Shown: in pieces, positions 1,480 to 48,783 of the stretch | How positions within the stretch are numbered: position 1 is the first letter of the stretch | Layout of the letters: each line of letters starts with the position of its first letter | From: a virus | Lineage: Duplodnaviria > Caudoviricetes | IMG/VR virus record: IMGVR_UViG_3300020045_003166 | Span: 13-64,012 of that record | Direction: 5' to 3' (one strand) | Length of the DNA: 64,000 bases | The notes under the pieces: generated by a model | Database searches by the model: none | What the model was told of the DNA's origin: nothing | What the model saw: only the letters and a program-made list of their open reading frames with translations | Translations under genes and position numbers: made by a program

Positions 1480-1710
1480 ATGACTAACGTAGAACGACTT
1501 AGGCAATATCTCATTAAAGCTTCCTTTAGCTCAAATAACGACAAGTTTTCGGCTTTGGAATGTCTTAGCGAGATTAAGCAGGAAAAAGAACTGTTGCTTG
1601 AAGCATGCAAATCTGCGGTAGACTCTTTCAACACGCAAGATCATTATAGCGGTGATGTAATGTGCGAGTTAGAGGAAGCCATCGCCAAGGCCACTGGAGA
1701 AACCTCATGA
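1480..1710 (+). CDS. Hypothetical protein, 76 aa
   Basis: AGGAG RBS; stop overlaps next start (ATGA). Confidence 0.7.
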   Translation: MTNVERLRQYLIKASFSSNNDKFSALECLSEIKQEKELLLEACKSAVDSFNTQDHYSGDVMCELEEAIAKATGETS

Positions 1711-2153
1711 ACATCTTCATCCTAGACACCAACCCGGTGCTCGCCGCTCAGATGCAATGTGACAAACACGTCGTCAAGATGGTGTTGGAATCAGCTCAGA
1801 TCCTCAGCACCATAAACGGAGGTCCATACAAACCGACACACAAGAATCATCCGTGTGTGTTGTGGGTTAGCGCTTCCCCTGCCAATTATCAATGGCTATC
1901 GCGTCACGCGATAGCTCTTTGTGTTGAATACACGGTTCGCTATGGTAAGCGTCATAAATGTCAGGACATTATAGTAGACTTAGCTATAAGCGACGCGTAT
2001 GATAATGATGAGAAAGTATCTTTCGTTCAATGTATGCCCGACGAATACAAAGGTGATGATCCAGTGGAGGCTTACCGCCGCTACTACCGAGGAGCCAAGG
2101 CTCACTTTGCAACCTGGACTAACCGTGACAAACCGACCTGGTGGGAGAACTGA
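1707..2153 (+). CDS. Pyrimidine-dimer DNA glycosylase / T4 endonuclease V-like family protein
   Basis: MNIFILD...CDKHVVKMVLESAQILST...HKNHPC...AYRRYY signature; start at ATG 1707. Confidence 0.8.
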   Translation: MNIFILDTNPVLAAQMQCDKHVVKMVLESAQILSTINGGPYKPTHKNHPCVLWVSASPANYQWLSRHAIALCVEYTVRYGKRHKCQDIIVDLAISDAYDNDEKVSFVQCMPDEYKGDDPVEAYRRYYRGAKAHFATWTNRDKPTWWEN

Positions 2154-4052: not shown

Positions 4053-4339
4053 TGAAAATGAAAACGCTAACTCAGCGCGAAGCTAAGGAAGGAGGGTTCG
4101 TAATTGATTCATCTTGCTCTCCTAACGTGGCTTATAAAGGTCCTCGCTTCAACCCGACAGAATGGTGTTACGTTAGGTCAGGTGATGAAGAGACCCTGCT
4201 CGAGCGTATTGCCGAACTTGAAGAACAAATCAGGCTAATACGAAGCAAGGTATATTCAGCAACTATTTGCCACCCGCAAGGCGTGCAATATCTTCTTGAA
4301 GAGGCTCTTGCTATCATCGACATCGAGGTAAAGAAATGA
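4049..4339 (+). CDS. Hypothetical protein
   Basis: ATGA overlaps at both ends. Confidence 0.6.
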   Translation: MMKMKTLTQREAKEGGFVIDSSCSPNVAYKGPRFNPTEWCYVRSGDEETLLERIAELEEQIRLIRSKVYSATICHPQGVQYLLEEALAIIDIEVKK

Positions 4340-5436
4340 ACCGCTCAATTTTCCCCAAGTTCTCCCTGAATCGGACCATCCGATGGGAAGACTACCTCAA
4401 CGTCCTCACGCCGTGGGAGAATCATCAAGGTATTTGGTTCAAGCGTGAAGACTATTTTGCGCCCTTGGGCTACGGTGGTCCAAACGGTTCCAAGTGTCGT
4501 CAACTGATTCACTTGATGAGCAGTAGCCTCGAAGGTAAGACTCACGTCCTCTCCGGCGCGAGCGTCAAGTCGCCTCAGCTTTCTATGAGCGCGATTATCG
4601 GAGCGCACTACGGACTGCCGAGCCGTCTTATCGTGGGTGCGACAAAGCCCAAGACGATGTTGTATCACCCCAACCCTCGCATTGCCGCTGGGTTCGGCGC
4701 CAAGTTCGAATTCATCAACGTCGCCTACAACCCGGCTCTTCAGCGTGAAGTAGCGAAGCTGACCAAGCCTTCCAGCCTCGTGGTGAAGTACGGTATTACA
4801 GTGGATCACAACACGTGTGTGCTAGAAGACCTCGTAGACTTTCACTCGGTGGGCGCTAATCAAGTCGCTAACCTACCTGACGAGGTCGAGGTCTTGATAG
4901 TACCTGCAGGGTCTTGCAACTCGCTGGTCAGCGTTTTGGTCGGACTGTACGCGGATTCCAAGAACGTGAAGCTGCTATACACGCTCGGGATTGGCCCTAA
5001 TAAGATGGAATGGGTGCGTGAGCGCTGCCTGAAGATGGGTATCGACCTTGATCACGCTCCGTTCAAGTGGAAGCATCACAGTCTTCATGACACCGGGTTC
5101 TCCACGTATCAGGACAGTATGTCTGAGAGCTTTGACGGGATTGATTTTCATCCGACGTACGAAGGCAAGATGATCCGTTACCTGAAGAGCAAGGGATGGC
5201 TCCCGGAAGACGGTACGGTTGGCTTCTGGATAGTCGGTAGCGAGCCTAACCTCAAGATCATTGAACCGTTTTACACGACCGATCCCGAGAGTATCCTGGC
5301 CGAAGGCGAGACGGTTGATATCTTAGCCAAGGCTGAAGCGATGTACGACGACATGCCGACCCCGAAACCCGCTTGGGACAACCTCGGAGTCACGACGCAG
5401 TCCGTGTGGATTGAGAAAGCAAAGGCGACCGTATGA
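4336..5436 (+). CDS. PLP-dependent enzyme (fold type II), likely decarboxylase acting on amino-acid-modified thymidine in DNA
   Basis: WFKREDY...NGSKCRQ (Schiff-base Lys), VPAGSCNS phosphate loop, HPTYEGK; context of the T-modification cluster. Confidence 0.8.
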   Translation: MNRSIFPKFSLNRTIRWEDYLNVLTPWENHQGIWFKREDYFAPLGYGGPNGSKCRQLIHLMSSSLEGKTHVLSGASVKSPQLSMSAIIGAHYGLPSRLIVGATKPKTMLYHPNPRIAAGFGAKFEFINVAYNPALQREVAKLTKPSSLVVKYGITVDHNTCVLEDLVDFHSVGANQVANLPDEVEVLIVPAGSCNSLVSVLVGLYADSKNVKLLYTLGIGPNKMEWVRERCLKMGIDLDHAPFKWKHHSLHDTGFSTYQDSMSESFDGIDFHPTYEGKMIRYLKSKGWLPEDGTVGFWIVGSEPNLKIIEPFYTTDPESILAEGETVDILAKAEAMYDDMPTPKPAWDNLGVTTQSVWIEKAKATV

Positions 5437-5978
5437 GCTACTTGAATCATGACCAAATCGTCCAGGCTTGCAAAGCGGGTGCGATAGAAAACTGGTCATC
5501 GGAGTGCGTGAATGCAGCCAGCCTAGACTTGCGTTTGGGCGAGACGATCTTCATGGAAGAGCCGGGTCGTACGATTACGCTTTCCTACCGTAACCGCGAT
5601 CCAATGAGGATGCGTGAGTATACTCTCGGTAAAGAAGGTATCATTATCATGCCCGGCGAGTTCTTCCTCGCGCACACGGTTGAGCAGTGTAACTTCCCGG
5701 ACGACCTCGCCGCCTTGTTCCGTATCAAGTCTAGCATGGGTCGCATAGGGCTTGAGCATATGGACGCCGGATGGGTCGATCCCGGTTTTCATGGGGCACT
5801 GACGCTCGAGTTCAAGAACATGACTCAACATCATGCTATCCTCTTGCGTCCTGGCGACAAGATCGGTCAGCTGATCTTCTTCCGAGGCGACAAAGTCAAT
5901 GAAGACCAGAGTTACCGGATGAAGGGTAACTACAACGGCCAGAGTGGTATCATGCAAGCGGGTTACAAGGAGAAGTAG
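5433..5978 (+). CDS. dcd: dCTP deaminase
   Basis: ASLDLRLG, PGEFFLAHT, KSSMGRIG, GWVDPGFHGALTLE, PGDKIGQLIF. Confidence 0.9.
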   Translation: MSYLNHDQIVQACKAGAIENWSSECVNAASLDLRLGETIFMEEPGRTITLSYRNRDPMRMREYTLGKEGIIIMPGEFFLAHTVEQCNFPDDLAALFRIKSSMGRIGLEHMDAGWVDPGFHGALTLEFKNMTQHHAILLRPGDKIGQLIFFRGDKVNEDQSYRMKGNYNGQSGIMQAGYKEK

Positions 5979-6152
5979 ATGAACTCCTGTTATTCATGTA
6001 AAAACTATCACCGCTACAGGGAATCTGAGTCATGGGAACTGGATTACATTTTATGGTACGTATTTGTGTGCGATGCTCGCCCAACTATTGTAAATCTTAA
6101 ACAGTTTCCTTTTACGAATACTAAATGCAAGTCCCACAAGGAGGATAAGTAA
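5979..6152 (+). CDS. Small Cys-containing protein, 57 aa (below cutoff)
   Basis: MNSCYSCKNY...CKSHKEDK; begins immediately after dcd stop. Confidence 0.5.
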   Translation: MNSCYSCKNYHRYRESESWELDYILWYVFVCDARPTIVNLKQFPFTNTKCKSHKEDK

Positions 6153-6325
6153 TGGATGCTGAAGAATTCTACGAGTGCTTCAAAGAAGCTCTTGACGCGC
6201 TTGGACCAGGTTTTAGACGAAAACAAGATGTAAAGGTCAGTATCAAAAATGGGCGATTTTGCATGTCATTCGATGTGACTGAGATTGCTATTTTACTTGA
6301 TACGAAGATAACGGAGGACAAGTGA
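6152..6325 (+). CDS. Hypothetical protein, 57 aa (below cutoff)
   Basis: GGAGGA RBS, TAATG overlap; MDAEEFYECFKEALDALG... Confidence 0.55.
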   Translation: MDAEEFYECFKEALDALGPGFRRKQDVKVSIKNGRFCMSFDVTEIAILLDTKITEDK

Positions 6326-6630
6326 TGGCTATGGAATTACGAGGTTCTCTCAACCTCAGTAAGTACTTCAAACTCAGTTCTAATCAGCCTAAGTTCTACG
6401 GCAAGGCACTGATCAACGGGGTAGAGTATACGCTGAAAGGCTGGGAGAAAGTACGACAGGATACGGGCGAAGTCTGGATCAGCCTACTGTTCGAAGACCC
6501 TGCGGACCAGGAAGAGAAACTGGCGGAAGAGTTCGCCCCAACCCCTAAACGGATGGAGCCGGTACGCCGACCCCGAACCGTTCAACCGAGACATCATCAG
6601 GAGCTTAGCGATGACGACGTGCCTTTCTAA
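6322..6630 (+). CDS. SSB-like small protein with acidic DDDVPF tail
   Basis: Beta-rich N-terminus (PKFYGKALINGVEYTLKGW) and SSB-type C-terminal DDVPF. Confidence 0.6.
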   Translation: MMAMELRGSLNLSKYFKLSSNQPKFYGKALINGVEYTLKGWEKVRQDTGEVWISLLFEDPADQEEKLAEEFAPTPKRMEPVRRPRTVQPRHHQELSDDDVPF

Positions 6631-6919
6631 CGAGACGGAAAACCCCCTCACTTATGTCGATCACGATGGTGCACGACGCGTAGTCCGCGGGTGCAAGCTG
6701 ACAGTGGATCACCTAGATCGCTACTGGATATGGAGCGAGCGGGTAAACCACAACATTGTCTACCGCACCAAGGGGCGCGAGAACGCATTACTTGGCGCGA
6801 TTGACTCGTTACTCTTCACCATCCAGCTACGGGATGAGCGTATTGCTGCGTTACAGCGAGTATACGACCTTGCGCAACGCTTTGCTGCCGAGGCTTTTCC
6901 AGAGGAGGAATCAGAATGA
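6611..6919 (+). CDS. Hypothetical protein within modification cluster
   Basis: ORF overlaps both neighbours; GAGG RBS for the next gene lies in its 3' end. Confidence 0.6.
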   Translation: MTTCLSNETENPLTYVDHDGARRVVRGCKLTVDHLDRYWIWSERVNHNIVYRTKGRENALLGAIDSLLFTIQLRDERIAALQRVYDLAQRFAAEAFPEEESE

Positions 6920-7908
6920 TGGACTACCGCCTGAAAGAGAATCGCCTGGAGTATTTTACCAAGCTCTACGCGATGAACCTGGAATATGGTATCATGCCGG
7001 GTTTGGTCTACCTTTACATGCCCGAGCTGGCTAAGAAGTATTCCTGGGACATGGAACAGCGGCTCTGGTTTGCCTTCTTGAATGGCAATACGCAGAACCC
7101 GATCACCAGTATGCGTATCTTCCGCCGGTTCCCCGAGCCTCCGCAGAACAAGGCTGAGCTTCAAGACCTCGAGGTTTGGTTCAACGCTGAATGGGAGCGC
7201 CTAAGTTTTGACACGGACCGCCGCTACCAGAAAAAGGACTTCCCGGCCGCAGTAATGTCCTACTGCCGAGCACTTCACGCATTTGAAACTCAGGAAAACC
7301 TACTCACCGGGACGTACGAAGAACTGTGGGAGCGCGTGACTACGTGTTTCAAGAGCTTCGGACGGCTAGCGACCTTCTCGTACCTGGAATACGTCAAGAT
7401 CATGGGAGCGGGAGCCGCGTGTACCGACCTGTTGTTTGAAGACAAGTCCGGCAGCAAGTCCCATCGCAACGGTATGCTGTTTTTGCTAGGTCATGATCAC
7501 CTGGTATGGGACAAGCGACAACCTGATGGACATGATGGAGACTACGGTGACCATTTCAAACGAATGTGCGCATGGCTTGACGGACAAGCCGCAAATTACA
7601 TTAGAGATTGCGGAATTCAACACCGCGACCTGGGTAATTTCACCCTGGAAAGTCAGTGTTGCCAGTTCAAGAACGGTTTCTTCCGTCGGCGCTATCCGGG
7701 TGTCTATGCCGACATGGCTTGGGATCGGATTAAGTGGTATGAGGATCGATCACTGTTCGATGTGACCTCCGACTTCCGCCGGATACGCGAAGATCACCTG
7801 CCCGAATGGTTACGCGAAGAGTGCGAGTCGCCGGTAGTAGATCGCAAAGTCAAAGCCTCACGATTCATGGAAACGGGCGTTCCGTTCCGTGCTGAACATT
7901 TCCTTTAG
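6916..7908 (+). CDS. Amino acid:DNA transferase (AADT / aGPT-Pplase2-like)
   Basis: DYRLKENRLEYF, RLWFAFLNGNTQN, FDTDRRYQK, FGRLATFSYLEY, SKSHRNG, RRRYPGVYAD recalled as M6 gp51-type motifs; cluster context. Confidence 0.75.
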   Translation: MMDYRLKENRLEYFTKLYAMNLEYGIMPGLVYLYMPELAKKYSWDMEQRLWFAFLNGNTQNPITSMRIFRRFPEPPQNKAELQDLEVWFNAEWERLSFDTDRRYQKKDFPAAVMSYCRALHAFETQENLLTGTYEELWERVTTCFKSFGRLATFSYLEYVKIMGAGAACTDLLFEDKSGSKSHRNGMLFLLGHDHLVWDKRQPDGHDGDYGDHFKRMCAWLDGQAANYIRDCGIQHRDLGNFTLESQCCQFKNGFFRRRYPGVYADMAWDRIKWYEDRSLFDVTSDFRRIREDHLPEWLREECESPVVDRKVKASRFMETGVPFRAEHFL

Positions 7909-7917
7909 GAGACTCAA

Positions 7918-8496
7918 ATGAGCAAGAAAATCGTATCACTTCGTGGCACCAGCGGTTCCGGCAAGAGTACCGTGGCCTTCAAGATCTTCGAAAAGTACCC
8001 TCGCCAGGAAATCGTCGGAGCCGACGGCAAGATTCAAGGCTACAAGGTGGATGCTCGTCCCGAGGTGAAACATCCTATCTACGTCCTGGGCAAATACACG
8101 ACGGCGTGCGGTGGGTGCGACCAAATACCGACTCAGCAAGAAGCTGCTGACCGTGCCGTACACTATCACCGCGACGGTCACGTACTGATGGAAGGTCTCC
8201 TGGCTTCGGCAGCAGGTCCGGCAGGAGCGGTTACGATGACGATCCAAGCCACGGGAGAGGCCGTTTTCGCCATCCTCGACACACCGGTAGACCTTTGCAT
8301 TGAGCGCGTCAAAGCCCGGCGTCTAGCGCGTGGAGATGAGCGCCCTCTCAATGAGAAAAACACCAGGGATAAGTGGCAACAGACAAGAAGTACGGCGAGC
8401 GCCCTGTTCAAACTCGGTTACGACGTCCGACCCATTGATCACACTCAAGCGTTCCAAGACGTGATGGACATTTTCGTGGGAGCCGAGCGTGATTAA
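7918..8496 (+). CDS. P-loop kinase (5-hmdU DNA kinase or hm-dUMP kinase)
   Basis: Walker A GTSGSGKST; LGKYTTACGGCD; LMEGL; DTPVDLCIERVKARR (NMP-kinase-like lid). Confidence 0.8.
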   Translation: MSKKIVSLRGTSGSGKSTVAFKIFEKYPRQEIVGADGKIQGYKVDARPEVKHPIYVLGKYTTACGGCDQIPTQQEAADRAVHYHRDGHVLMEGLLASAAGPAGAVTMTIQATGEAVFAILDTPVDLCIERVKARRLARGDERPLNEKNTRDKWQQTRSTASALFKLGYDVRPIDHTQAFQDVMDIFVGAERD

Positions 8497-9394
8497 TCCT
8501 TTCAACCGACCCACTATCTACGCTCCGTGCCTGAATGACATTCTGTACTGGGTAGCTGAGCGGGAACGTATCCGTGAGGCCAAACTGATGGATAGCGTGG
8601 AGCCATGGACTGAGGATCCCATTCTCCAGAAGTATCGCTTTTGTAACGTCCGTCGTCGTCACGACCGGATGAGTCAGTGGATGATTTATAACATGTTCGC
8701 TCCGTACAAGGCTGACGATGATAAAGACCTTTGGTTCGTGTCCGCTGTTGCTCGCTACGTGAACTGGCCGCCGAGCCTCTTGTCGCTCTTGATGAACGGA
8801 GCTATCCCGCTTAGCGCTGAGAAGTTCGACCCTTACGTCTTCGTGGCCGTGATGGACGACCTCAAGAAACAAGGGCTCAAGTGCTGGGGAAGTGCGTATA
8901 TGATTTATCCGTCTAGTACGAAGGGAGCTAACAAGGCCGAGACGGTAGCCTTCCGCTTCCTGCAACCCCTAGTGGATCACGCTGAGGAAGTCCGTAAAGC
9001 GGTAGCGAGCAATACCGTCGAGGGGGTAGTGACTGAACTGTCTAAGTTCTATGGCTGGAATACCTTCTTGTCTGGCCAGGTGGCGGCAGACCTGACGTAT
9101 TTTGCCGATGAACTCGGCATGGCGAAAGACCTGTATAATTGGGCGCCTATTGGGCCGGGTTCGCAGCGAGGATTGAATCGTCTGTTTGGGTATCCATTAG
9201 CACACGCTTGGAAACAAGACGACTTCAACAAAGCGTTGATGGTAATCTGGCAGGATATTGCTGAGCAGTTAGACCTTGAAGACATCACGTTACATGACGT
9301 CCAAAACGTGATGTGCGAAATGGACAAGTACTGGAGAGTGCTCGCGGGTGAAGGTGCTCCCCGTTCGATTTACGTGCCGGAAACGGCTTACTAG
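8489..9394 (+). CDS. 5-hmdU DNA kinase helical-domain / aGPT-Pplase1-like protein
   Basis: ERERIR...PWTEDPILQKYRFCNVRRRHDR, GQVAADL, GPGSQRGLNRL, DVQNVMCEMDKY; GTG start overlapping the kinase stop. Confidence 0.8.
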   Translation: MINPFNRPTIYAPCLNDILYWVAERERIREAKLMDSVEPWTEDPILQKYRFCNVRRRHDRMSQWMIYNMFAPYKADDDKDLWFVSAVARYVNWPPSLLSLLMNGAIPLSAEKFDPYVFVAVMDDLKKQGLKCWGSAYMIYPSSTKGANKAETVAFRFLQPLVDHAEEVRKAVASNTVEGVVTELSKFYGWNTFLSGQVAADLTYFADELGMAKDLYNWAPIGPGSQRGLNRLFGYPLAHAWKQDDFNKALMVIWQDIAEQLDLEDITLHDVQNVMCEMDKYWRVLAGEGAPRSIYVPETAY

Positions 9395-9403
9395 GAGAAT
9401 AAC

Positions 9404-10387
9404 ATGGAAATCAGGACAAGAAATGTCAATACCGCTCTCAGCGACGCCCTCTGGCGTCTCAAGGTCTGCGGAGTCGGCGAGCAAACTCGCAACGGACCGG
9501 TCATCGCCTTCCCCGAGCCGATTATGACTATCTACGAAAGGCCTCAGGAGCGAGTATTGTTCTGGGGAGAGCGCGACGCCAACCCGATCTTCCACTTGAT
9601 GGAATCGATTTGGATGCTGGCCGGACGCCGAGACGTCAAGTTCCTGGAACAGTTCAATTCCAAGATCGGTCAGTATTCCGATGATGGCGAAGTGTTCAAT
9701 GCGGCCTATGGCTATCGCTGGCGTACTCATTTTGGGTATGACCAGCTGAAACTGATCATTGATATACTGAGAGCCGACCCCAACACTCGTCAGGCGGTGA
9801 TGCAGATCTGGGAACCGGATGACCTGTTCAAATTCACTAAGGACAAGGCTTGTAACACTCAGGTCTTCTTCGAGATTCGTCAGGGATATCTCAACATGAC
9901 CGTGATCAATCGCTCGAATGACATGTGGTACGGGTGTTACGGAGCAAACGCGGTACACTTCAGTATGCTGATGGAGTTCGTCGCCCACGCCGTCGGTGTA
10001 CCGATGGGAGAGTACCGTCAGTTCAGTAACAACCTCCACCTCTACACCGAGTTGTATGATGCGGTAAAACACCTTGACTGTCCTCCCGAGCCATATGACT
10101 ATGACGCCTATCAACATGGCGTGCGCCCCTCGCCGATACTCAATATCGGCGATGATTGGCGTTCCTGGCTAGAAGACGCCGAGGCTTTTTGCGACGACCC
10201 ATTTAGAACTAAAGACTTTACGCACCCATTTTTCTTAGACGTAGCATGGCCGATGGCAATGGTCTCTAAGGTGCGTAAGGACAAGACGGGAACCGGGATA
10301 GACTGGGCGCACTCCATCGTCGCTGAAGATTGGAAAATAGCCGTTGGTGACTGGATTGAACGGCGTGAATTAGCTAAGCAAAAATAA
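9404..10387 (+). CDS. Thymidylate-synthase-fold dUMP hydroxymethylase
   Basis: TRQAV, catalytic KACN, RSNDMWYGCYGANAVHFS (Asn suggests dUMP substrate), NNLHLY; no DHFR gene seen. Confidence 0.8.
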   Translation: MEIRTRNVNTALSDALWRLKVCGVGEQTRNGPVIAFPEPIMTIYERPQERVLFWGERDANPIFHLMESIWMLAGRRDVKFLEQFNSKIGQYSDDGEVFNAAYGYRWRTHFGYDQLKLIIDILRADPNTRQAVMQIWEPDDLFKFTKDKACNTQVFFEIRQGYLNMTVINRSNDMWYGCYGANAVHFSMLMEFVAHAVGVPMGEYRQFSNNLHLYTELYDAVKHLDCPPEPYDYDAYQHGVRPSPILNIGDDWRSWLEDAEAFCDDPFRTKDFTHPFFLDVAWPMAMVSKVRKDKTGTGIDWAHSIVAEDWKIAVGDWIERRELAKQK

Positions 10388-10390
10388 CGC

Positions 10391-10424
10391 TTGCCCCCAT
10401 TACGGACTTGAGCTATAATGGGGG
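10391..10424 (+). promoter_or_regulatory. Promoter TTGCCC-N17-TATAAT with CCCCC/GGGGG boxes
   Basis: -35 10391-10396, -10 10414-10419, GGGGG 10420-10424. Confidence 0.75.
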
Positions 10425-10454
10425 TACTTACTAACCGATAACAGGAGAAATAAA

Positions 10455-11066
10455 ATGAGTAAAAAATACGAATTCACCGGCGAGACGAAAATCCACTTCG
10501 GCGTGACGCTTCGCCGGATTCGCGCACTTGTGACGATTATCGGCGTCGTTTCGTCCGGTGATGCTGGCGGGTGGATCGAGTCAGAAAAATGCCTTGATCA
10601 CAATGGTAATGCGTGGGTCTCTGGTAATGCGTGGGTCTATGACGATGCGTGGGTCTCTGGTAATGCGCGGGTCTATGGTAATGCGCGGGTCTATGGTAAT
10701 GCGCGGGTCTATGGTAATGCGTGGGTCTATGACGATGCGTGGGTCTCTGGTAATGCGCGGGTCTATGGTAATGCGTGGGTCTATGGCGATGCGCAGGTCT
10801 ATGGTAATGCGCAGGTCTATGGCGATGCGCAGGTCGAGTCAAAAGAGTCTATCTGCTCGTTCTCCGGGTTCGGTTCTGAATTCCGCACGACCACTGCATT
10901 TATCGATAAAGAGCTTGGCATTCGAATCGTATGCGGATGCTTCACCGGAACGCTTTACCAGTTCCGCGAGAAGGTTATTCAGACGCACGGAGAAGATAGC
11001 AAGAACGGGAAGTTGTATCTCGGCATGGCGAACATGATTGAATACAGGCTTGGGAGCGAGAAATGA
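10455..11066 (+). CDS. Hexapeptide-repeat (left-handed beta-helix-like) phage protein
   Basis: KKYEFTGETK...RIRAL N-terminus, 13 x G(N/D)A(W/R/Q)V(S/Y), C-terminal TTAF...CGCFTGT. Confidence 0.85.
   Translation: MSKKYEFTGETKIHFGVTLRRIRALVTIIGVVSSGDAGGWIESEKCLDHNGNAWVSGNAWVYDDAWVSGNARVYGNARVYGNARVYGNAWVYDDAWVSGNARVYGNAWVYGDAQVYGNAQVYGDAQVESKESICSFSGFGSEFRTTTAFIDKELGIRIVCGCFTGTLYQFREKVIQTHGEDSKNGKLYLGMANMIEYRLGSEK
10605..10838 (+). repeat. 13 x 18-bp tandem repeat (consensus ggtaatgcgcgggtctat)
   Basis: Read directly; encodes the hexapeptide repeat. Confidence 0.95.
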
Positions 11067-11317
11067 TCAGTCGCTTAGATCAGCTCGAACGCCGAGTCCT
11101 CATGATGGAATTAGCCTTGCGAAATCACGGGGTTACGATTGATGAATATCCCAGACCACAGGCTGAAGAAACCTATGAACCCAAATTTGCTCCAGCACAA
11201 CTCCGCGCATTAGGGCAACCTTACTGTCCCAAGTGTTACACGTTTGGTAATGAACATCGCAATACGTGTCCTTACTCGGACCAAGGTATGACAAATCATG
11301 TAAGGATTACCAAATGA
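11063..11317 (+). CDS. Hypothetical protein with CxxC
   Basis: ATGA overlap; CPKC...C. Confidence 0.6.
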   Translation: MISRLDQLERRVLMMELALRNHGVTIDEYPRPQAEETYEPKFAPAQLRALGQPYCPKCYTFGNEHRNTCPYSDQGMTNHVRITK

Positions 11318-11814
11318 AAGACCGTCTAAACTTCATCATCTCTGGTAGCGAAGTCGTCCGCTATCACACCGTTCGTACGCTGACCTCCGAAACCGTTGGG
11401 CATCATTCCCACATGGTGGCAATGCTCTGTATCATTCTCCATCCGGAGGGTTGTCCAAGCCCTAACCTGTTGTGGGGAGCCTTGGCGCATGACCTGGCAG
11501 AACACCAAACTGGGGACATCCCCTCCCCGGCCAAACGGGAGTACGGGATTGGCGACCAGGTGTCGGAACTGGAGGAAAGACTCTTGAGAAGTGTGAATTT
11601 AGACGTAAATCTGTCTAAACTAGAAGCTCGTATCCTGAAATTAGCTGACTTGGCCCAGGGTGCGCTGTTTTGCGTACGAGAACTTCAGCTGGGTAACACT
11701 TTGATGAAAATCGTGTACGAGCGTTACAAGTCCTACGCCGAAGGTATGGTCTTAGTCGGCAAAGAGCGTGAGCTGTTCAATGTAATTCAACAGATGAGAG
11801 AGGAAATCAAATGA
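11314..11814 (+). CDS. HD-domain phosphohydrolase (YfbR/5'-deoxynucleotidase-like)
   Basis: VVRYH...ETVGHHS...ALAHDLAEHQTGDIPSPAK...LKLAD. Confidence 0.85.
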   Translation: MKDRLNFIISGSEVVRYHTVRTLTSETVGHHSHMVAMLCIILHPEGCPSPNLLWGALAHDLAEHQTGDIPSPAKREYGIGDQVSELEERLLRSVNLDVNLSKLEARILKLADLAQGALFCVRELQLGNTLMKIVYERYKSYAEGMVLVGKERELFNVIQQMREEIK

Positions 11815-12209
11815 GCGCGGATAAAAAACAAATCGGTGGCGAGCACTACAAGAAACACGGTGAGCGTATTCAACACTGGAATGTCGTGGCTGAAATGGGC
11901 TGGGACTATTTCATCGGCAACGCGACCAAGTACCTCTGGCGTCTTGGCGAAAAAGGCGGTCCGGACAAAGCGGTCGAAGACATCAGCAAGGCGATTCACT
12001 ACTTGGAAAAGAAGCGTGAGCTGATGATGGGGGAACTTCATAAGTCAAATCAGTATGTTCCAAAAACGAACCCTGAGATCAACGCTCTCAAACGCGCAGA
12101 ACAGGATGTCACCCGAGCCTATAATCCTATGATACCTACGGAGTTCCTCAAAGTCAGCGACGTCACTGGTCCAGGACCTGGACCTGGATACGTTAATCAG
12201 GATCGATAA
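11811..12209 (+). CDS. DUF3310-like protein
   Basis: QIGGEHY...GNATKYLWRLGEKG...EDISKAIHYLE. Confidence 0.8.
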   Translation: MSADKKQIGGEHYKKHGERIQHWNVVAEMGWDYFIGNATKYLWRLGEKGGPDKAVEDISKAIHYLEKKRELMMGELHKSNQYVPKTNPEINALKRAEQDVTRAYNPMIPTEFLKVSDVTGPGPGPGYVNQDR

Positions 12210-12216
12210 TCATGGA

Positions 12217-12465
12217 ATGGACTCAGTTAGATACAATCATGTGTATGCTCGCGTTTATCATCGGCTTTCTACTGGTGAAATGATGACAACTCTACTCTTT
12301 ATTTGGGTGGTGTCGGCTGCTATTCCGGGTGTCAAATATAGTCACTGGGAAATGAGTGGTGTGCTTTACACTGAAGCCGCTTGCGCCAATGCCGCTAAAT
12401 CACTTAGTTTAGACGCTAGAGAGTTTCGTTGTGTTGTACAGGCTACAGGAGAGCTAGTAAAGTGA
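12217..12465 (+). CDS. Small hypothetical protein with hydrophobic segment (start may be 12280)
   Basis: MMTTLLFIWVVSAAIPG...CANAAK...C. Confidence 0.5.
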   Translation: MDSVRYNHVYARVYHRLSTGEMMTTLLFIWVVSAAIPGVKYSHWEMSGVLYTEAACANAAKSLSLDAREFRCVVQATGELVK

Positions 12466-14378
12466 GCAAGACTATCGTATGGGATATAGAAATATTTGCT
12501 AATGTTCTACTTTTCTGCGGACGCGTGTTGGAGAACCGTAATGTCATCGCTATTTGGCACGACGATCCGGACGCCCTGGCGAACATCCGAGCGGTGTTCG
12601 ACTCAGGCTGTACGATGGTGTCATTCAACGGTATCAAGTTCGACACGCCGGTGACGTCTGCGCTACTCGCGGGTAAAGACATCTCTACGGTCAAAATGAT
12701 AGCCAACTCTATCATCGAACACCAGATGCAACCGTGGGAGGCTCAGCGTCGGTTCGGCATTCCCGACTTGAAGTTCGACCATATTGACTTGATAGAAGTC
12801 GCACCGAGTTTCGTAGGTCTAAAAGCCTACGGTGCGCGGATGCATATGCGATGGCTGAAAGACCTGCCGTTCGAACATGACGCCGTGATTACTCCCGAGC
12901 AGCGTCCGTTCGTTCAGGAGTACTGCATCAATGACCTGGACACAACCGAGGAGTTGTACCGACGGCTAGAGTTTCAGCTAAACCTACGCCGGCAAATGGG
13001 AGTGGAGTACAAGTGCGACTTCCGTAGCAAGTCTGATACGCAGATGGCTGAAGCCGCTTTCATCAAGAGGCTCAACCTACCTCGCAATAACAAACGGTTG
13101 CCGAAGTCGATCGTCTATGACGCGCCACCGTATATTCAATTCGAAGACCCTACTATTCAAGGTATCTTTGACCGGGTAAAAGAAACCGTGTTCCCTATTA
13201 ATCAGAAGACTGGTCACGTAGAACTGCCGGACTTCTTGGGTAAGGAACAGATTAAACTCAACTCGGGTACTTATCAGCTCGGAGTCGGCGGTATTCATTC
13301 TACTCACGACAAGAAAGTCTGTTACGTCGCAACTAAAGACTACGTCGTCACTGATATTGACGCCGCTTCTTTCTATCCATCGATTTGGGTACTCTGGGGT
13401 GAGGTGTCTGGAGACTACAATGAAGCTCTGACTGAAGAGTACAGCAAGATCTACTATCGACGCTTAAAAGCGAAGGCCGACGGGGATAAGGACACCGCCG
13501 AAGGTCTGAAGGTTCCTATCAATGGGTCTTTCGGAAAGCTATTATCTCATTACTCACCGATGTACGGACCAACCCTCGGACTGTTCATTACTTTAACCGG
13601 ACAGTTCACCCTGCTAATGCTCATCGCATGGCTCGAGAAAGTGGGTGCAGTGGCGCTCTCTGCCAATACCGACGGTATCGCTATGGGTTACCCTGCCGAG
13701 CTAAAAGAAACCGTAGAACGTGTCGTCTCGGACTTCGAGAAGCTCACTAAGTTTAGTTTTGAGTACACCCCGTATCGCGTATTAGCGATGAAAGACGTGA
13801 ACAATTACATCGCGGTTAAGACCGACCGTAAAGTGAAAGCGAAAGGTATTTATGCGCCTCTTGATCTCAAGAAGAACCCGACAGCCTCGGTTTGCGCAAA
13901 TGCAGTCTGCGAATGGCTTGCGAAAGGAACTCCGTTCATTGATACTATCAAATCGGCTCCTTTTACGGACTTCATCTCGGCACGTTCAGTCACCGGAGGA
14001 GGTGTTCAAGGAACTAAACTGATTACCTTGAAAGACTTGGCAAAAGATCCGTTGGATTCCTACAACTCAGTTGTCGGTACTGAAGGTGGCGAGTATCTGG
14101 GAAAGGTCGTGCGTTGGTATCAATCCACGGACGAACAGATGGAATGTATTCGTTATCAGACTAACGGTAACAAGGTGCCGAAGACCGACGGAGCCAGGGC
14201 TTGTATGATCATTGAAAATAAAGTTGCCCATCCGTCGGATTTAAACTATAATACTTACCTCAAGGAAGCCATATCAATAGCTATTAACGTGGGTTGTAAG
14301 GATTTCCTAACGGACGAACAGATAGCGCTGGTGACGCCTCCACCTAAAGTCAAGAAACCCAGAAAGGTAAAATCATGA
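12462..14378 (+). CDS. DNA polymerase, family B-like, with 3'-5' exonuclease
   Basis: Exo WDIEIF, SFNGIKFD, YCINDL; pol DIDAASFYPS, KVPINGSFGK, NTDG; GTG start. Confidence 0.9.
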   Translation: MSKTIVWDIEIFANVLLFCGRVLENRNVIAIWHDDPDALANIRAVFDSGCTMVSFNGIKFDTPVTSALLAGKDISTVKMIANSIIEHQMQPWEAQRRFGIPDLKFDHIDLIEVAPSFVGLKAYGARMHMRWLKDLPFEHDAVITPEQRPFVQEYCINDLDTTEELYRRLEFQLNLRRQMGVEYKCDFRSKSDTQMAEAAFIKRLNLPRNNKRLPKSIVYDAPPYIQFEDPTIQGIFDRVKETVFPINQKTGHVELPDFLGKEQIKLNSGTYQLGVGGIHSTHDKKVCYVATKDYVVTDIDAASFYPSIWVLWGEVSGDYNEALTEEYSKIYYRRLKAKADGDKDTAEGLKVPINGSFGKLLSHYSPMYGPTLGLFITLTGQFTLLMLIAWLEKVGAVALSANTDGIAMGYPAELKETVERVVSDFEKLTKFSFEYTPYRVLAMKDVNNYIAVKTDRKVKAKGIYAPLDLKKNPTASVCANAVCEWLAKGTPFIDTIKSAPFTDFISARSVTGGGVQGTKLITLKDLAKDPLDSYNSVVGTEGGEYLGKVVRWYQSTDEQMECIRYQTNGNKVPKTDGARACMIIENKVAHPSDLNYNTYLKEAISIAINVGCKDFLTDEQIALVTPPPKVKKPRKVKS

Positions 14379-47529: not shown

Positions 47530-48783
47530 TTATCCCCTAACCGACACGCGCCTGAAATCTATTGACCCAATTCCACCAGTGAATGTTGAGGCGATGGTGT
47601 AGATAATTAAAAAATTGAGTGACGTTGGGGTAGTTCCCCCCGTCCGTTTAGTTGTATTTCGCAGCACGTAGGTTTTCGACAATGATGCTGACGGCTCGAA
47701 ATCTATCGATACCTGCGGGGATATAAACTCTGTTGTGTTGGCCTGAATGTAGGTGCTTACGTTAGATATTTGTGTTGTGTTTACTGCGTTGAGACGTATT
47801 TCAGCGGAAACGTCAAACTGTGCAGGGTCAATCGAGGACATTGCGCGGCCTTGCAATGCAATCCCGGTGTTAAGGTGCTGTCCGCTTGTAGCCGCTGATA
47901 TTGCGACACGCTGCCACGGCGTTTGATTTGCATCGCCAATATCCGCCGCGACTTTTGAGCAAACTGCTGTCATGTTATAGCCGGTTACACCAGTATTATT
48001 TGCCACAACCCCTGTAACCGATCCACCTACCGATCCACCAGATCCGGCCATAAATGGGTTAATCACCCACTGAGGATGCGCCGGGTAAATGTCTGTCGGG
48101 TCTGTTATCAACGGGCTAGGCTTCCCGGCAAGTTCTGCGGCCAAAGCAGACGCCAGCGCCGCGCCACACACCGCAACCCCTTTGTGGTTTAGATGTACAT
48201 CATCTACAAAATACGATGCAATCTGCGACCCGTCGGGATTGCGTAATCCAAGCGAGTCGTTCACGAACATAAACCTGCCCGGATTCGCTGCGGCAAAAGC
48301 CGCAAGCCACGAATTAGCCGCGATTGAGCTTGTATTTCCTGCCACGTTCGATACTGGTGGGACCGATAGAATAATCACCCGTTTTGCGTATGTCGCCAGC
48401 GCATTACATAGTGACGTTGCCGCCGTTGTTGGAAATGCGCCGCCGCCTCGTATATCGTTTGTTCCGACTCGACTAACCGCGTAACCGATAGAGCTTTCGC
48501 CAACAGACGCCGCGATTCCCGCGAAGCCAGGCGAGCCAGCGGTGTACAGGTTGTTCACCCGCGACAGAATATCTGCAACAGTCTCGCCAGAAACCCCACA
48601 ATTTGCCAGCAGCTTGAGCTTACCCCCGTTAGCTCCGTTGCCGGTGTAAAACGGGGTCAACCCGTAGCCTGCTGCCGTTAGCGAGTCGCCAATCAGGGCT
48701 GCGTATGAGTTTGCATTAAACCGCCCCCCAGCGATCACTCCACCAGAGGCACATCTATAGGAATCGGCAACCGGAGAGGTCAT
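47530..48783 (-). CDS. SGNH/GDSL hydrolase-domain protein
   Basis: IGDSLT (block I), GVSGET (II), GTND (III), DDVHLN (V). Confidence 0.85.
   Translation of the reverse strand: MTSPVADSYRCASGGVIAGGRFNANSYAALIGDSLTAAGYGLTPFYTGNGANGGKLKLLANCGVSGETVADILSRVNNLYTAGSPGFAGIAASVGESSIGYAVSRVGTNDIRGGGAFPTTAATSLCNALATYAKRVIILSVPPVSNVAGNTSSIAANSWLAAFAAANPGRFMFVNDSLGLRNPDGSQIASYFVDDVHLNHKGVAVCGAALASALAAELAGKPSPLITDPTDIYPAHPQWVINPFMAGSGGSVGGSVTGVVANNTGVTGYNMTAVCSKVAADIGDANQTPWQRVAISAATSGQHLNTGIALQGRAMSSIDPAQFDVSAEIRLNAVNTTQISNVSTYIQANTTEFISPQVSIDFEPSASLSKTYVLRNTTKRTGGTTPTSLNFLIIYTIASTFTGGIGSIDFRRVSVRG

What the first reader, a model, noticed from the sequence alone, without database searches (positions are those of the whole stretch)
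4336..12209. Thymidine-hypermodification operon in a podovirus-like phage, with a PLP enzyme but no recognisable radical-SAM, flavin or acetyltransferase tailoring enzyme
Seen: a tightly overlapping run of PLP enzyme, dCTP deaminase, AADT-like protein, P-loop kinase, HMUDK-helical-like protein and TS-fold enzyme, with an HD hydrolase and DUF3310 just downstream. Established (phages M6, ViI, PaMx11): 5-hmdU is incorporated, phosphorylated on DNA, then displaced by an amino acid; M6 adds a radical-SAM isomerase before PLP decarboxylation, ViI uses O-serine plus PLP decarboxylase, and PaMx11 uses a flavin lyase plus acetyltransferase. Inference: a PLP enzyme needs a free primary amine and no CxxxCxxC radical-SAM gene is visible, so an O-linked serine route (5-NeOmdU-like) or a new amino-acid adduct is likely. 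The virion module here is podovirus-like, unlike the siphoviruses and myoviruses from which I recall these pathways being characterised.
Basis: partly seen in the sequence, partly recalled or inferred. Interest (0 to 1): 0.8.

Follow-up and report, generated by a model that had tools for sequence, protein, structure and literature searches.

The report
ViI-type thymidine hypermodification operon
An uncultured 64-kb phage carries the full, already characterised enzyme kit for replacing thymine in its DNA by an amino-acid-derived base, most likely the aminoethoxymethyl-uracil of Salmonella phage ViI, so it is a new carrier of a known pathway and not a new chemistry.

Summary
Window 4336-12209 is a tightly packed plus-strand operon. 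It encodes a fold-type II PLP enzyme, a dCTP deaminase, an amino acid:DNA transferase (AADT), a P-loop 5-hmdU DNA kinase, an HMUDK-helical protein, a TS-fold hydroxymethylase, an HD nucleotidase and a DUF3310 protein.

The cluster is a mosaic. The gene order AADT, kinase, helical protein, TS, HD, DUF3310 matches Pseudomonas phages M6 and PaMx11, and those genes are their homologues. The AADT and the PLP enzyme instead resemble Salmonella phage ViI gp247 (serine:DNA transferase; 28% identity, E 8e-25) and gp226 (O-serinyl-T decarboxylase; 36%, E 1e-67). The catalytic Glu245/Cys249 of the AADT and Lys53 of the PLP enzyme are conserved.

No radical-SAM, GNAT or DAO-type flavoenzyme was found in this complete genome or in four complete relatives. 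The best reading is therefore the ViI route: 5-hmdU, then 5-PmdU, then O-serinyl-T, then 5-NeOmdU. The pathway class is near certain. The amino acid is inferred, at about 0.55-0.6.

The lineage has hundreds of environmental relatives. In it the PLP gene is optional: one complete relative lacks it. The virion module is collinear with Caulobacter phage RW and related to HTVC023P-type podoviruses.

This is a new member of a known kind. The scan has noted such clusters in at least 38 other genomes.

The parts
4336..5436 (+). Fold-type II PLP enzyme, ViI gp226-type decarboxylase of the DNA-linked amino acid. Predicted aldimine lysine is K53.
   Evidence: 36% identity, E 1e-67 to ViI gp226. K53 aligns with ViI K92 and M6 K36 and is invariant. 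AF2 model has pLDDT 91; best PDB matches are D-cysteine desulfhydrase and the ACC deaminase homologue 1j0a.
5433..5978 (+). dCTP deaminase, supplying dUTP/dUMP. Whether it is mono- or bifunctional is undetermined.
   Evidence: PF22769 1.6e-36. TIGR02274 scores 124 bits, above the 92.8 cut-off. Present only in the four closest relatives.
5979..6919 (+). Four small ORFs (57, 57, 102 and 102 aa) of unknown function between the deaminase and the AADT.
   Evidence: No Pfam or NCBIfam family. Two have homologues at other positions in relatives. The ESM Atlas returned only unnamed viral clusters.
6916..7908 (+). Amino acid:DNA transferase (AADT, clade 2 aGPT-Pplase) of the ViI gp247 side of the family. 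Catalytic residues E245 and C249.
   Evidence: PF18724 scores 61.2 bits against a cut-off of 26.2. 28% identity, E 8e-25 to ViI gp247, and no BLAST hit to M6 gp51 or PaMx11 gp46. E245, C249 and K252 are invariant. Tree.
7918..8496 (+). P-loop 5-hmdU DNA kinase (HMUD1 type).
   Evidence: 35% identity, E 2e-30 to the characterised PaMx11 gp49, and 27% to M6 gp54. HMUDK_HMUD1 scores 26.7 bits. Walker A motif present.
8489..9394 (+). HMUDK helical protein (former aGPT-Pplase clade 1), homologue of M6 gp55 and PaMx11 gp50. Its role is unknown.
   Evidence: PF18723 scores 148.5 bits. 28% identity to M6 gp55. The domain is fused to the kinase in SP10 gp186. Invariant C276, E277 and K280.
9404..10387 (+). 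TS-fold enzyme, predicted dUMP hydroxymethylase.
   Evidence: 46% identity to M6 gp58 and PaMx11 gp51. Below every NCBIfam thymidylate synthase cut-off. Best solved relative is the MilA CMP hydroxymethylase. C150 and N182 are kept, the E. coli W80 column is a gap, and H147 is replaced by N.
10455..11066 (+). YdcK-like hexapeptide-repeat beta-solenoid protein. Probably an unrelated accessory insert.
   Evidence: PF18836 repeats. Matches PDB 2f9c, YdcK, at 4.7e-23. Present only in the window and L004. Homologues occur in unrelated temperate phages.
11266..11814 (+). HD-domain YfbR-like 5'-deoxynucleotidase, homologue of M6 gp59 and PaMx11 gp52. Its role in clearing dTMP is inferred.
   Evidence: PF12917 3.3e-10. 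BLAST to PaMx11 gp52 at 9e-11.
11811..12209 (+). DUF3310 protein, homologue of PaMx11 gp53.
   Evidence: PF11753 scores 28.9 bits. BLAST to PaMx11 gp53 at 3e-12. Conserved in 23 of the 25 related loci; the two without it are short contigs.
12429..14378 (+). Family A DNA polymerase that must incorporate 5-hmdUTP.
   Evidence: phrog_1252 6e-155. Follows the cluster in all relatives whose contig reaches that far.

Best explanation
The operon is a complete thymidine-hypermodification pathway.

Before replication (inferred from family functions): the dCTP deaminase feeds deoxyuridine nucleotides to the TS-fold dUMP hydroxymethylase. The HD nucleotidase, and perhaps the DUF3310 protein, help to deplete thymidine nucleotides. 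The phage polymerase then builds DNA with 5-hmdU in place of T.

On the DNA polymer (by homology to enzymes characterised in vitro by Lee et al. 2021):
1. The P-loop kinase phosphorylates 5-hmdU to 5-PmdU.
2. The AADT uses Cys249 and Glu245 to expel phosphate through a C5-methylene intermediate. It then adds an amino acid through its side chain, most likely the hydroxyl of serine, giving O-serinyl-T.
3. The PLP enzyme (Lys53) binds the free alpha-amine and removes CO2, giving 5-(2-aminoethoxy)methyl-dU (5-NeOmdU), the base of Salmonella phage ViI.

The genes are a mosaic: an M6/PaMx11-type backbone carrying a ViI-type transferase and decarboxylase. The pathway class has a probability of about 0.9. 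The identity of the amino acid and the final product are inference, at about 0.55-0.6.
For: - Family assignments are above cut-off for the AADT, HMUDK_hel and dCTP deaminase.
- BLASTP to characterised enzymes: PLP enzyme to ViI gp226, 36%, 1e-67; AADT to ViI gp247, 28%, 8e-25; kinase to PaMx11 gp49, 35%, 2e-30; TS-fold enzyme to M6 gp58 and PaMx11 gp51, 46%.
- Neither the AADT nor the PLP enzyme gives a BLAST hit to the glycine-route enzymes M6 gp51, PaMx11 gp46 or M6 gp52.
- In the AADT tree the window family sits with ViI gp247 and is separated from M6, PaMx11 and PhiW-14 by a branch with 100% SH-aLRT support.
- The Cys and Glu that Lee et al. showed to be essential by mutagenesis (PMC8989533, section read) are invariant here.
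- The PLP lysine is invariant, and the confident model has a fold-type II fold.
- The TS-fold enzyme keeps the catalytic Cys and the uracil-specifying Asn but fails all thymidylate synthase equivalog cut-offs.
- No radical-SAM, GNAT or DAO family gene and no homologue of M6 gp53 or PaMx11 gp47/gp48 occurs anywhere in the genome.
- The core is conserved and collinear in 25 related viral contigs.
Against: - Identity to the characterised ViI enzymes is low (28% and 36%), and no specificity determinants of AADTs are known, so serine is not demonstrated.
- ViI gp247 sits on a very long branch.
- The closest cultured AADT homologues, in mycobacteriophages (about 36%) and Glutamicibacter phage Montesquieu (38%), are uncharacterised.
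- The nearest solved structures to the PLP enzyme are desulfhydrases and deaminases, not decarboxylases.
- The kinase scores 0.3 bits under the Pfam cut-off.
- Nothing here measures the DNA itself.
Confidence: 0.6

Rival explanations
1. The pathway architecture is the same, but the AADT attaches a different amino acid that keeps a free alpha-amine, such as threonine, homoserine, cysteine, ornithine or lysine through the side chain. PLP-dependent decarboxylation would then yield a thymidine derivative that has not yet been described.
For: The AADT is only 28% identical to ViI gp247. It belongs to a large, separate environmental clade together with uncharacterised actinophage enzymes. Within the family, known members already use serine, glycine and putrescine (PMC8989533, Table 1).
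Against: Both the transferase and its partner PLP enzyme find the ViI serine-route pair as their best characterised homologues, over their full length. No extra tailoring or amino-acid biosynthesis gene accompanies them.
Confidence: 0.25
2. The PLP enzyme is not a decarboxylase here. It performs a typical fold-type II reaction, such as elimination or deamination, on the DNA-linked amino acid or on a free metabolite. The final base would then be different, or would be the untrimmed amino-acid adduct.
For: The best structural neighbours are D-cysteine desulfhydrase and ACC deaminase. The PLP gene is dispensable in the lineage: a complete relative lacks it. In some relatives it lies about 5 kb from the AADT.
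Against: It is 36% identical over almost its full length to ViI gp226, which was shown to decarboxylate O-SerT and has the same structural neighbours (1j0a; PMC8989533, section read). It co-occurs with the AADT core in 14 of the 25 related loci.
Confidence: 0.08
3. No hypermodification is made. The TS-fold enzyme is an ordinary thymidylate synthase, and the kinase and AADT genes are inactive or serve another purpose.
For: No direct chemical evidence exists for this uncultured phage. TS and hydroxymethylase cannot be told apart with certainty from sequence.
Against: The TS-fold enzyme fails all thymidylate synthase equivalog cut-offs. It is 46% identical to the enzymes of the hmdU-dependent phages M6 and PaMx11. 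All catalytic residues of the AADT, kinase and PLP enzyme are intact and conserved across diverged relatives.
Confidence: 0.03

Closest known systems
Salmonella phage ViI (Vi01) 5-NeOmdU pathway: gp247 serine:DNA transferase, gp226 PLP decarboxylase, gp67/gp243 kinases (Lee et al. 2018, 2021)
   Same: The tailoring logic is the same: AADT plus a fold-type II PLP enzyme, with no radical-SAM isomerase. The window's AADT and PLP enzyme have these two proteins as their best characterised homologues. The catalytic Cys/Glu and Lys are conserved.
   Different: Identity is only 28% and 36%. The kinase here is the HMUD1 type, whereas ViI gp243 is the HMUD2 family. ViI genes are scattered over a 157-kb myovirus genome, while here they form one operon in a 64-kb genome. 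A dCTP deaminase is linked to the cluster.
Pseudomonas phages M6 (5-NedU) and PaMx11 (5-AcNmdU), Mesyanzhinovviridae
   Same: The gene order AADT, P-loop kinase, HMUDK_hel, TS-fold enzyme, HD, small protein is the same. The kinase, helical protein, TS-fold enzyme, HD and DUF3310 are homologous at 27-46%.
   Different: Their AADTs transfer glycine through its alpha-amine and belong to the other deep clade. Their tailoring genes (rSAM + PLP, or FAD lyase + acetyltransferase) sit between the AADT and the kinase and are absent here. Here the PLP gene lies upstream of the AADT.
Glutamicibacter phage Montesquieu cluster (MONT_38-42, 51-52)
   Same: It is a cultured phage with a closer AADT (38% identity) directly followed by a fold-type II PLP gene and P-loop kinases. 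It also carries a clade 1 aGPT-Pplase and a TS/hydroxymethylase.
   Different: Its kinases are the Ploopntkinase3 type. The base it makes has not been determined, so it does not help to fix the chemistry.
Caulobacter phage RW group and HTVC023P-type pelagiphages (virion module only)
   Same: Twelve collinear structural genes are shared with phage RW; the capsid protein is 65% identical. The capsid protein is 37-40% identical to HTVC023P/HTVC027P and CRP-901/902.
   Different: Phage RW has a different replication module and none of the modification genes.

Membership tests
Amino acid:DNA transferase (AADT, clade 2 aGPT-Pplase, PF18724) | Profile match above the curated cut-off | tested here: met
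   61.2 bits against a cut-off of 26.2; 59.7 bits in the genome search.
Amino acid:DNA transferase (AADT, clade 2 aGPT-Pplase, PF18724) | Essential cysteine and neighbouring glutamate (mutagenesis in M6 gp51 and ViI gp247; PMC8989533) | tested here: met
   E245 and C249 (with K252) align with ViI E282/C287 and M6 E243/C247. They are invariant in 31 and in 18 sequences.
Amino acid:DNA transferase (AADT, clade 2 aGPT-Pplase, PF18724) | Serine specificity with O-linkage, as in ViI gp247 | not testable with these tools
   Only clade placement with ViI gp247 and the presence of a ViI-type PLP partner speak for it. No specificity residues are known and no structure is solved.
5-hmdU DNA kinase (HMUD1-type P-loop kinase) | Profile match, Walker A motif and homology to a characterised member | tested here: inconclusive
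   PF18748 scores 26.7 bits, just under the 27 cut-off. However, GTSGSGKS is present, and the protein is 35% identical, E 2e-30, to the characterised PaMx11 gp49. The gene also sits next to an HMUDK_hel gene, as in M6 and PaMx11. I file it as a member on the homology.
HMUDK helical domain (former aGPT-Pplase clade 1, PF18723) | Profile match above cut-off; linkage to the kinase | tested here: met
   148.5 bits against a cut-off of 25. The gene overlaps the kinase gene by 8 nt. The same two domains are fused in SP10 gp186.
ViI gp226 / M6 gp52-type PLP decarboxylase of DNA-linked amino acids | Fold-type II PLP fold with the aldimine lysine | tested here: met
   K53 aligns with ViI K92 and M6 K36 and is invariant. 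The model has pLDDT 91 and matches 4d8t and 1j0a at Foldseek probability 1.00.
ViI gp226 / M6 gp52-type PLP decarboxylase of DNA-linked amino acids | Decarboxylation of O-SerT in DNA | not testable with these tools
   Inferred from 36% identity to ViI gp226.
dUMP hydroxymethylase (TS-fold) | TS fold with catalytic Cys and a uracil-specifying Asn, but not a canonical ThyA | tested here: met
   C150 and N182 are conserved. The E. coli W80 column is a gap and H147 is N, as in M6 gp58 and PaMx11 gp51. The protein is below all NCBIfam TS cut-offs. The best PDB match is a pyrimidine hydroxymethylase. The product itself is not testable.
M6-type 5-NedU pathway | Radical-SAM glycinyl-thymine isomerase next to the PLP enzyme | tested here: not met
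   No PF04055 match in this genome or in four complete relatives, with all 14 control genomes positive. No tblastn hit of M6 gp53. Only one CxxxCxxC motif occurs in the genome, in a 91-aa frame.
PaMx11-type 5-AcNmdU pathway | FAD-dependent lyase and GNAT acetyltransferase | tested here: not met
   No PF01266 or PF00583 match. No significant tblastn hit of PaMx11 gp47 or gp48.
dCTP deaminase (TIGR02274) | Equivalog score above cut-off | tested here: met
   124.1 bits against a cut-off of 92.8.

The most novel reading that the evidence does not exclude
The AADT of this large, uncultured, probably freshwater phage lineage attaches an amino acid other than serine through its side chain. The optional PLP enzyme would then trim it to a thymidine derivative that has not yet been described. 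Relatives that lack the PLP gene would package DNA carrying the untrimmed amino-acid adduct as their final base.
Probability: 0.25. Interest if true: 0.6.

Novelty: new member of a known kind. Interest (0 to 1): 0.32.

Why it matters
Hypermodified thymidines protect phage DNA from restriction enzymes and other nucleases. They are also of practical interest as enzymatic routes to functionalised DNA.

This locus extends the ViI-type route (AADT plus PLP decarboxylase) out of the Ackermannviridae. It places it in a compact operon of a 64-kb phage lineage whose AADT and PLP enzyme each have more than 700 environmental homologues at E <= 1e-5. It also shows that modules from the M6/PaMx11 and ViI systems recombine.

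The natural presence or absence of the PLP gene among otherwise collinear complete genomes is a ready-made comparison. It can test whether an untrimmed amino-acid adduct can serve as a final modification. It does not open a new chemistry unless the amino acid turns out not to be serine.

Tried and rejected
- Megablast of the region against 50,697 phage records found no match.
- The look-up of sequencing runs listed no run, so no read-level or habitat evidence was obtained.
- The single-sequence fold of the YdcK-like protein was poor (pLDDT 47) and was not used for a fold search. Its possible acyltransferase nature stays untested. I rejected it as a pathway component because it occurs only in the window and one full-length relative, and because its homologues sit in unrelated temperate phages.
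- Complex prediction of the kinase with the helical protein returned no verdict.
- The ESM Atlas look-ups of the two 102-aa ORFs gave only unnamed viral clusters or scores at chance level.
- A profile-profile comparison of the AADT and HMUDK_hel alignments was not significant (probability 0.5%). The published paralogy of the two aGPT-Pplase clades could therefore not be reproduced with these small alignments.
- A weak tblastn hit of the PaMx11 acetyltransferase to ORF 6322-6630 (E 0.06, 39 aa) was dismissed as chance.
- The promoter and terminator scans were at background level.
- Pfam scans of further unassigned ORFs found no hidden tailoring enzyme.

Full report
**What the window is.** The window is almost the whole of a 64,012-bp IMG/VR virus record with direct terminal repeats, which CheckV rates as complete. 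Plus-strand early and replication genes fill 1-21 kb. Most of the rest is a minus-strand virion module, followed by primase and helicase genes.

**Checking the observation.** They are joined by 1-52 nt overlaps or 0-9 nt gaps, apart from one 67-nt gap before 10455. Family searches confirm each of them:
- 4336-5436: a PLP enzyme. PALP is weak at 17.7 bits, but phrog_3650 gives 4.8e-84.
- 5433-5978: a dCTP deaminase. TIGR02274 scores 124 bits against a cut-off of 92.8.
- 6916-7908: ADDT/PF18724, 61.2 bits against 26.2.
- 7918-8496: a P-loop kinase. HMUDK_HMUD1 scores 26.7 bits, just under the cut-off of 27. The Walker A motif GTSGSGKS is present.
- 8489-9394: HMUDK_hel/PF18723, 148.5 bits.
- 9404-10387: a TS-fold enzyme, phrog_5131 2.4e-110.
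- 11266-11814: an HD/YfbR-like protein.
- 11811-12209: a DUF3310 protein.

**Comparison with the characterised systems.** I fetched the ViI, M6, PaMx11, PhiW-14 and SP10 loci. I used the protein table of Lee et al. 2021 (PMC8989533) to pick the enzymes that were tested in vitro. BLASTP shows a mosaic.
- The M6/PaMx11-type genes are the kinase (35% to PaMx11 gp49), the helical protein (28% to M6 gp55), the TS-fold enzyme (46% to M6 gp58 and PaMx11 gp51), the HD protein and DUF3310.
- The gene order AADT, kinase, helical protein, TS, HD, small protein is the same as in those phages.
- The AADT finds only ViI gp247, the serine:DNA transferase (28%, E 8e-25).
- The PLP enzyme finds only ViI gp226, the O-serinyl-T decarboxylase (36%, E 1e-67).
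- Neither of these two gives a BLAST hit to the glycine-route proteins of M6 or PaMx11.

**Catalytic residues.**
- AADT. Lee et al. showed by mutagenesis that a cysteine and a neighbouring glutamate are essential. They correspond to window C249 and E245 and are invariant in every aligned member.
- PLP enzyme. The lysine proposed for the PLP aldimine (ViI K92, M6 K36) aligns with window K53 and is invariant. An AlphaFold model built on 32 homologues is confident (pLDDT 91). Its best solved matches are D-cysteine desulfhydrase and the ACC deaminase homologue 1j0a. Lee et al. report 1j0a as the template for gp226.
- TS-fold enzyme. It keeps the catalytic Cys and the Asn that specifies uracil. Like M6 gp58 and PaMx11 gp51, it has a gap at the E. 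coli W80 column and has N in place of H147. It is below every NCBIfam thymidylate synthase cut-off. Its best solved relative is a pyrimidine hydroxymethylase.

**Absence of other tailoring enzymes.**
- No Radical_SAM, GNAT or DAO family match occurs in this genome or in four complete relatives. All 14 control genomes were positive.
- M6 gp53 and PaMx11 gp47/gp48 give no significant tblastn hit.
- Pfam scans of the remaining larger ORFs found nothing relevant.
- The YdcK-like protein matches only the uncharacterised YdcK structure. It is present in just the window and one full-length relative. Its homologues lie in unrelated temperate phages. I therefore treat it as an inserted accessory gene. 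An acyltransferase role is not strictly excluded.

**Relatives.**
- Twenty-five IMG/VR contigs carry the same AADT at 50-86% identity. All of them keep the core AADT, kinase, helical protein, TS-fold enzyme, DUF3310 and polymerase wherever the contig reaches that far; the HD gene is found in ten of them.
- The kinase and the helical protein are always separate, abutting genes. In SP10 gp186 they are fused.
- The PLP gene is present in 14 of the 25 loci.
- One relative that CheckV rates complete has no PLP gene, by protein search and by profile search with positive controls.
- The dCTP deaminase occurs only in the four closest relatives.
- Database searches return more than 700 homologues at E <= 1e-5 for both the AADT and the PLP enzyme. 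Almost all come from metagenomes.
- In the AADT tree the window family groups with ViI gp247, mycobacteriophage JAMaL gp3 and Glutamicibacter phage Montesquieu. The glycine and putrescine transferases lie across a long branch with 100% support. ViI itself is a long branch.

**Mechanism.** The inferred steps are as follows.
1. dCTP deaminase and the TS-fold hydroxymethylase make 5-hmdUMP. The HD nucleotidase helps to remove thymidine nucleotides.
2. The polymerase incorporates 5-hmdU.
3. The kinase makes 5-PmdU on the DNA.
4. The AADT replaces the phosphate by an amino acid.
5. The PLP enzyme decarboxylates the adduct.

Steps 3 to 5 rest on homology to enzymes reconstituted in vitro. A PLP enzyme needs a free alpha-amine and there is no isomerase, so the amino acid must be attached through its side chain. 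With ViI-type partners, serine, and hence 5-NeOmdU, is the most economical reading. The amino acid is not shown. A different side-chain-linked amino acid remains possible, at about 0.25.

**Virion type.** Twelve structural genes are collinear with Caulobacter phage RW, and the capsid protein is 65% identical. Phage RW has none of the modification genes. The capsid protein is 37-40% identical to HTVC023P-type pelagiphages, which a paper describes as Podoviridae (PMC9599517). 'Podovirus-like' is therefore plausible but indirect.

**Verdict.** The layout (AADT plus PLP without rSAM) is the published ViI logic. Lee et al. 2021 already described metagenomic permutations of these genes. This scan has logged such clusters in at least 38 other genomes, including a related AADT judged ordinary. 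This is a new member of a known kind. The modest added value lies in the M6/ViI mosaic, the optional PLP gene and the unexplained, apparently catalytic helical protein.

Noticed in passing
window 8489-9394: The so-called helical domain protein has invariant C276-E277-x2-K280 and a W82-F83...N92-W93-P94-P95 block across 13 relatives that are only 40-83% identical. This looks like an active site and not a passive domain. Its role is unknown; M6 gp55 was dispensable in vitro. It might act on the 5-PmdU that is not aminoacylated.
   Followed up: partly
L021 (IMGVR_UViG_3300025387_000022, 54 kb, CheckV 100%): A complete relative keeps AADT, kinase, helical protein, TS, DUF3310 and polymerase. It has no PLP gene by either protein or profile search, with positive controls. 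The PLP-less contigs L015 and L017-L023 form one AADT clade; L007 and L024 also lack it but are incomplete contigs.
   Followed up: partly
window 10455-11066: A YdcK-like protein with about ten GNA(R/W)VY hexapeptide repeats is inserted between the TS-fold and HD genes. It follows the only sizeable gap in the operon and a promoter-like site at 10391-10419. Some database records label homologues 'putative acyltransferase'. It is present only in the window and L004 (partial in L003).
   Followed up: partly
window 21393-58252 (minus strand): The structural module is collinear with Caulobacter phage RW: 12 shared genes, capsid protein 65% identical, 893-aa protein 43% identical. The closest large terminases are from phages of Paracoccus, Rhizobium and Roseobacter, which hints at an alphaproteobacterial host.
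   Followed up: partly
L028 (M6 gp54), L029 (PaMx11 gp49), L036 (SP10 gp186), L031 (JAMaL gp4); phrog_800: The 5-hmdU DNA kinases of M6, PaMx11 and SP10, and the P-loop kinase (Ploopntkinase3) next to the AADT-like gene of mycobacteriophage JAMaL, are annotated 'terminase small subunit' in GenBank. phrog_800 carries the same label. This looks like a propagated misannotation.
   Followed up: no
L031 (Mycobacterium phage JAMaL 785-3460): These mycobacteriophages (genus Coopervirus, Bclasvirinae) carry an AADT homologue (about 36% identity to the window's). It lies between a queuine tRNA-ribosyltransferase-like gene and a P-loop kinase, at the genome left end, with no PLP gene nearby. This may be an uncharacterised DNA modification.
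   Followed up: no
window 5300-5436: The PLP enzyme of the window and its closest relatives (L002; P0124-P0127) has a helical C-terminal extension of about 45 aa. Most relatives (318-331 aa) and the ViI gp226 alignment lack it.
   Followed up: no
window 1662-2153: An early gene with a pyrimidine-dimer DNA glycosylase (DenV-like, PF03013) domain.
   Followed up: no
window 47530-48783 (minus strand): A GDSL/SGNH hydrolase domain protein lies inside the virion module. It is probably a virion-associated esterase and is not linked to DNA modification.
   Followed up: no
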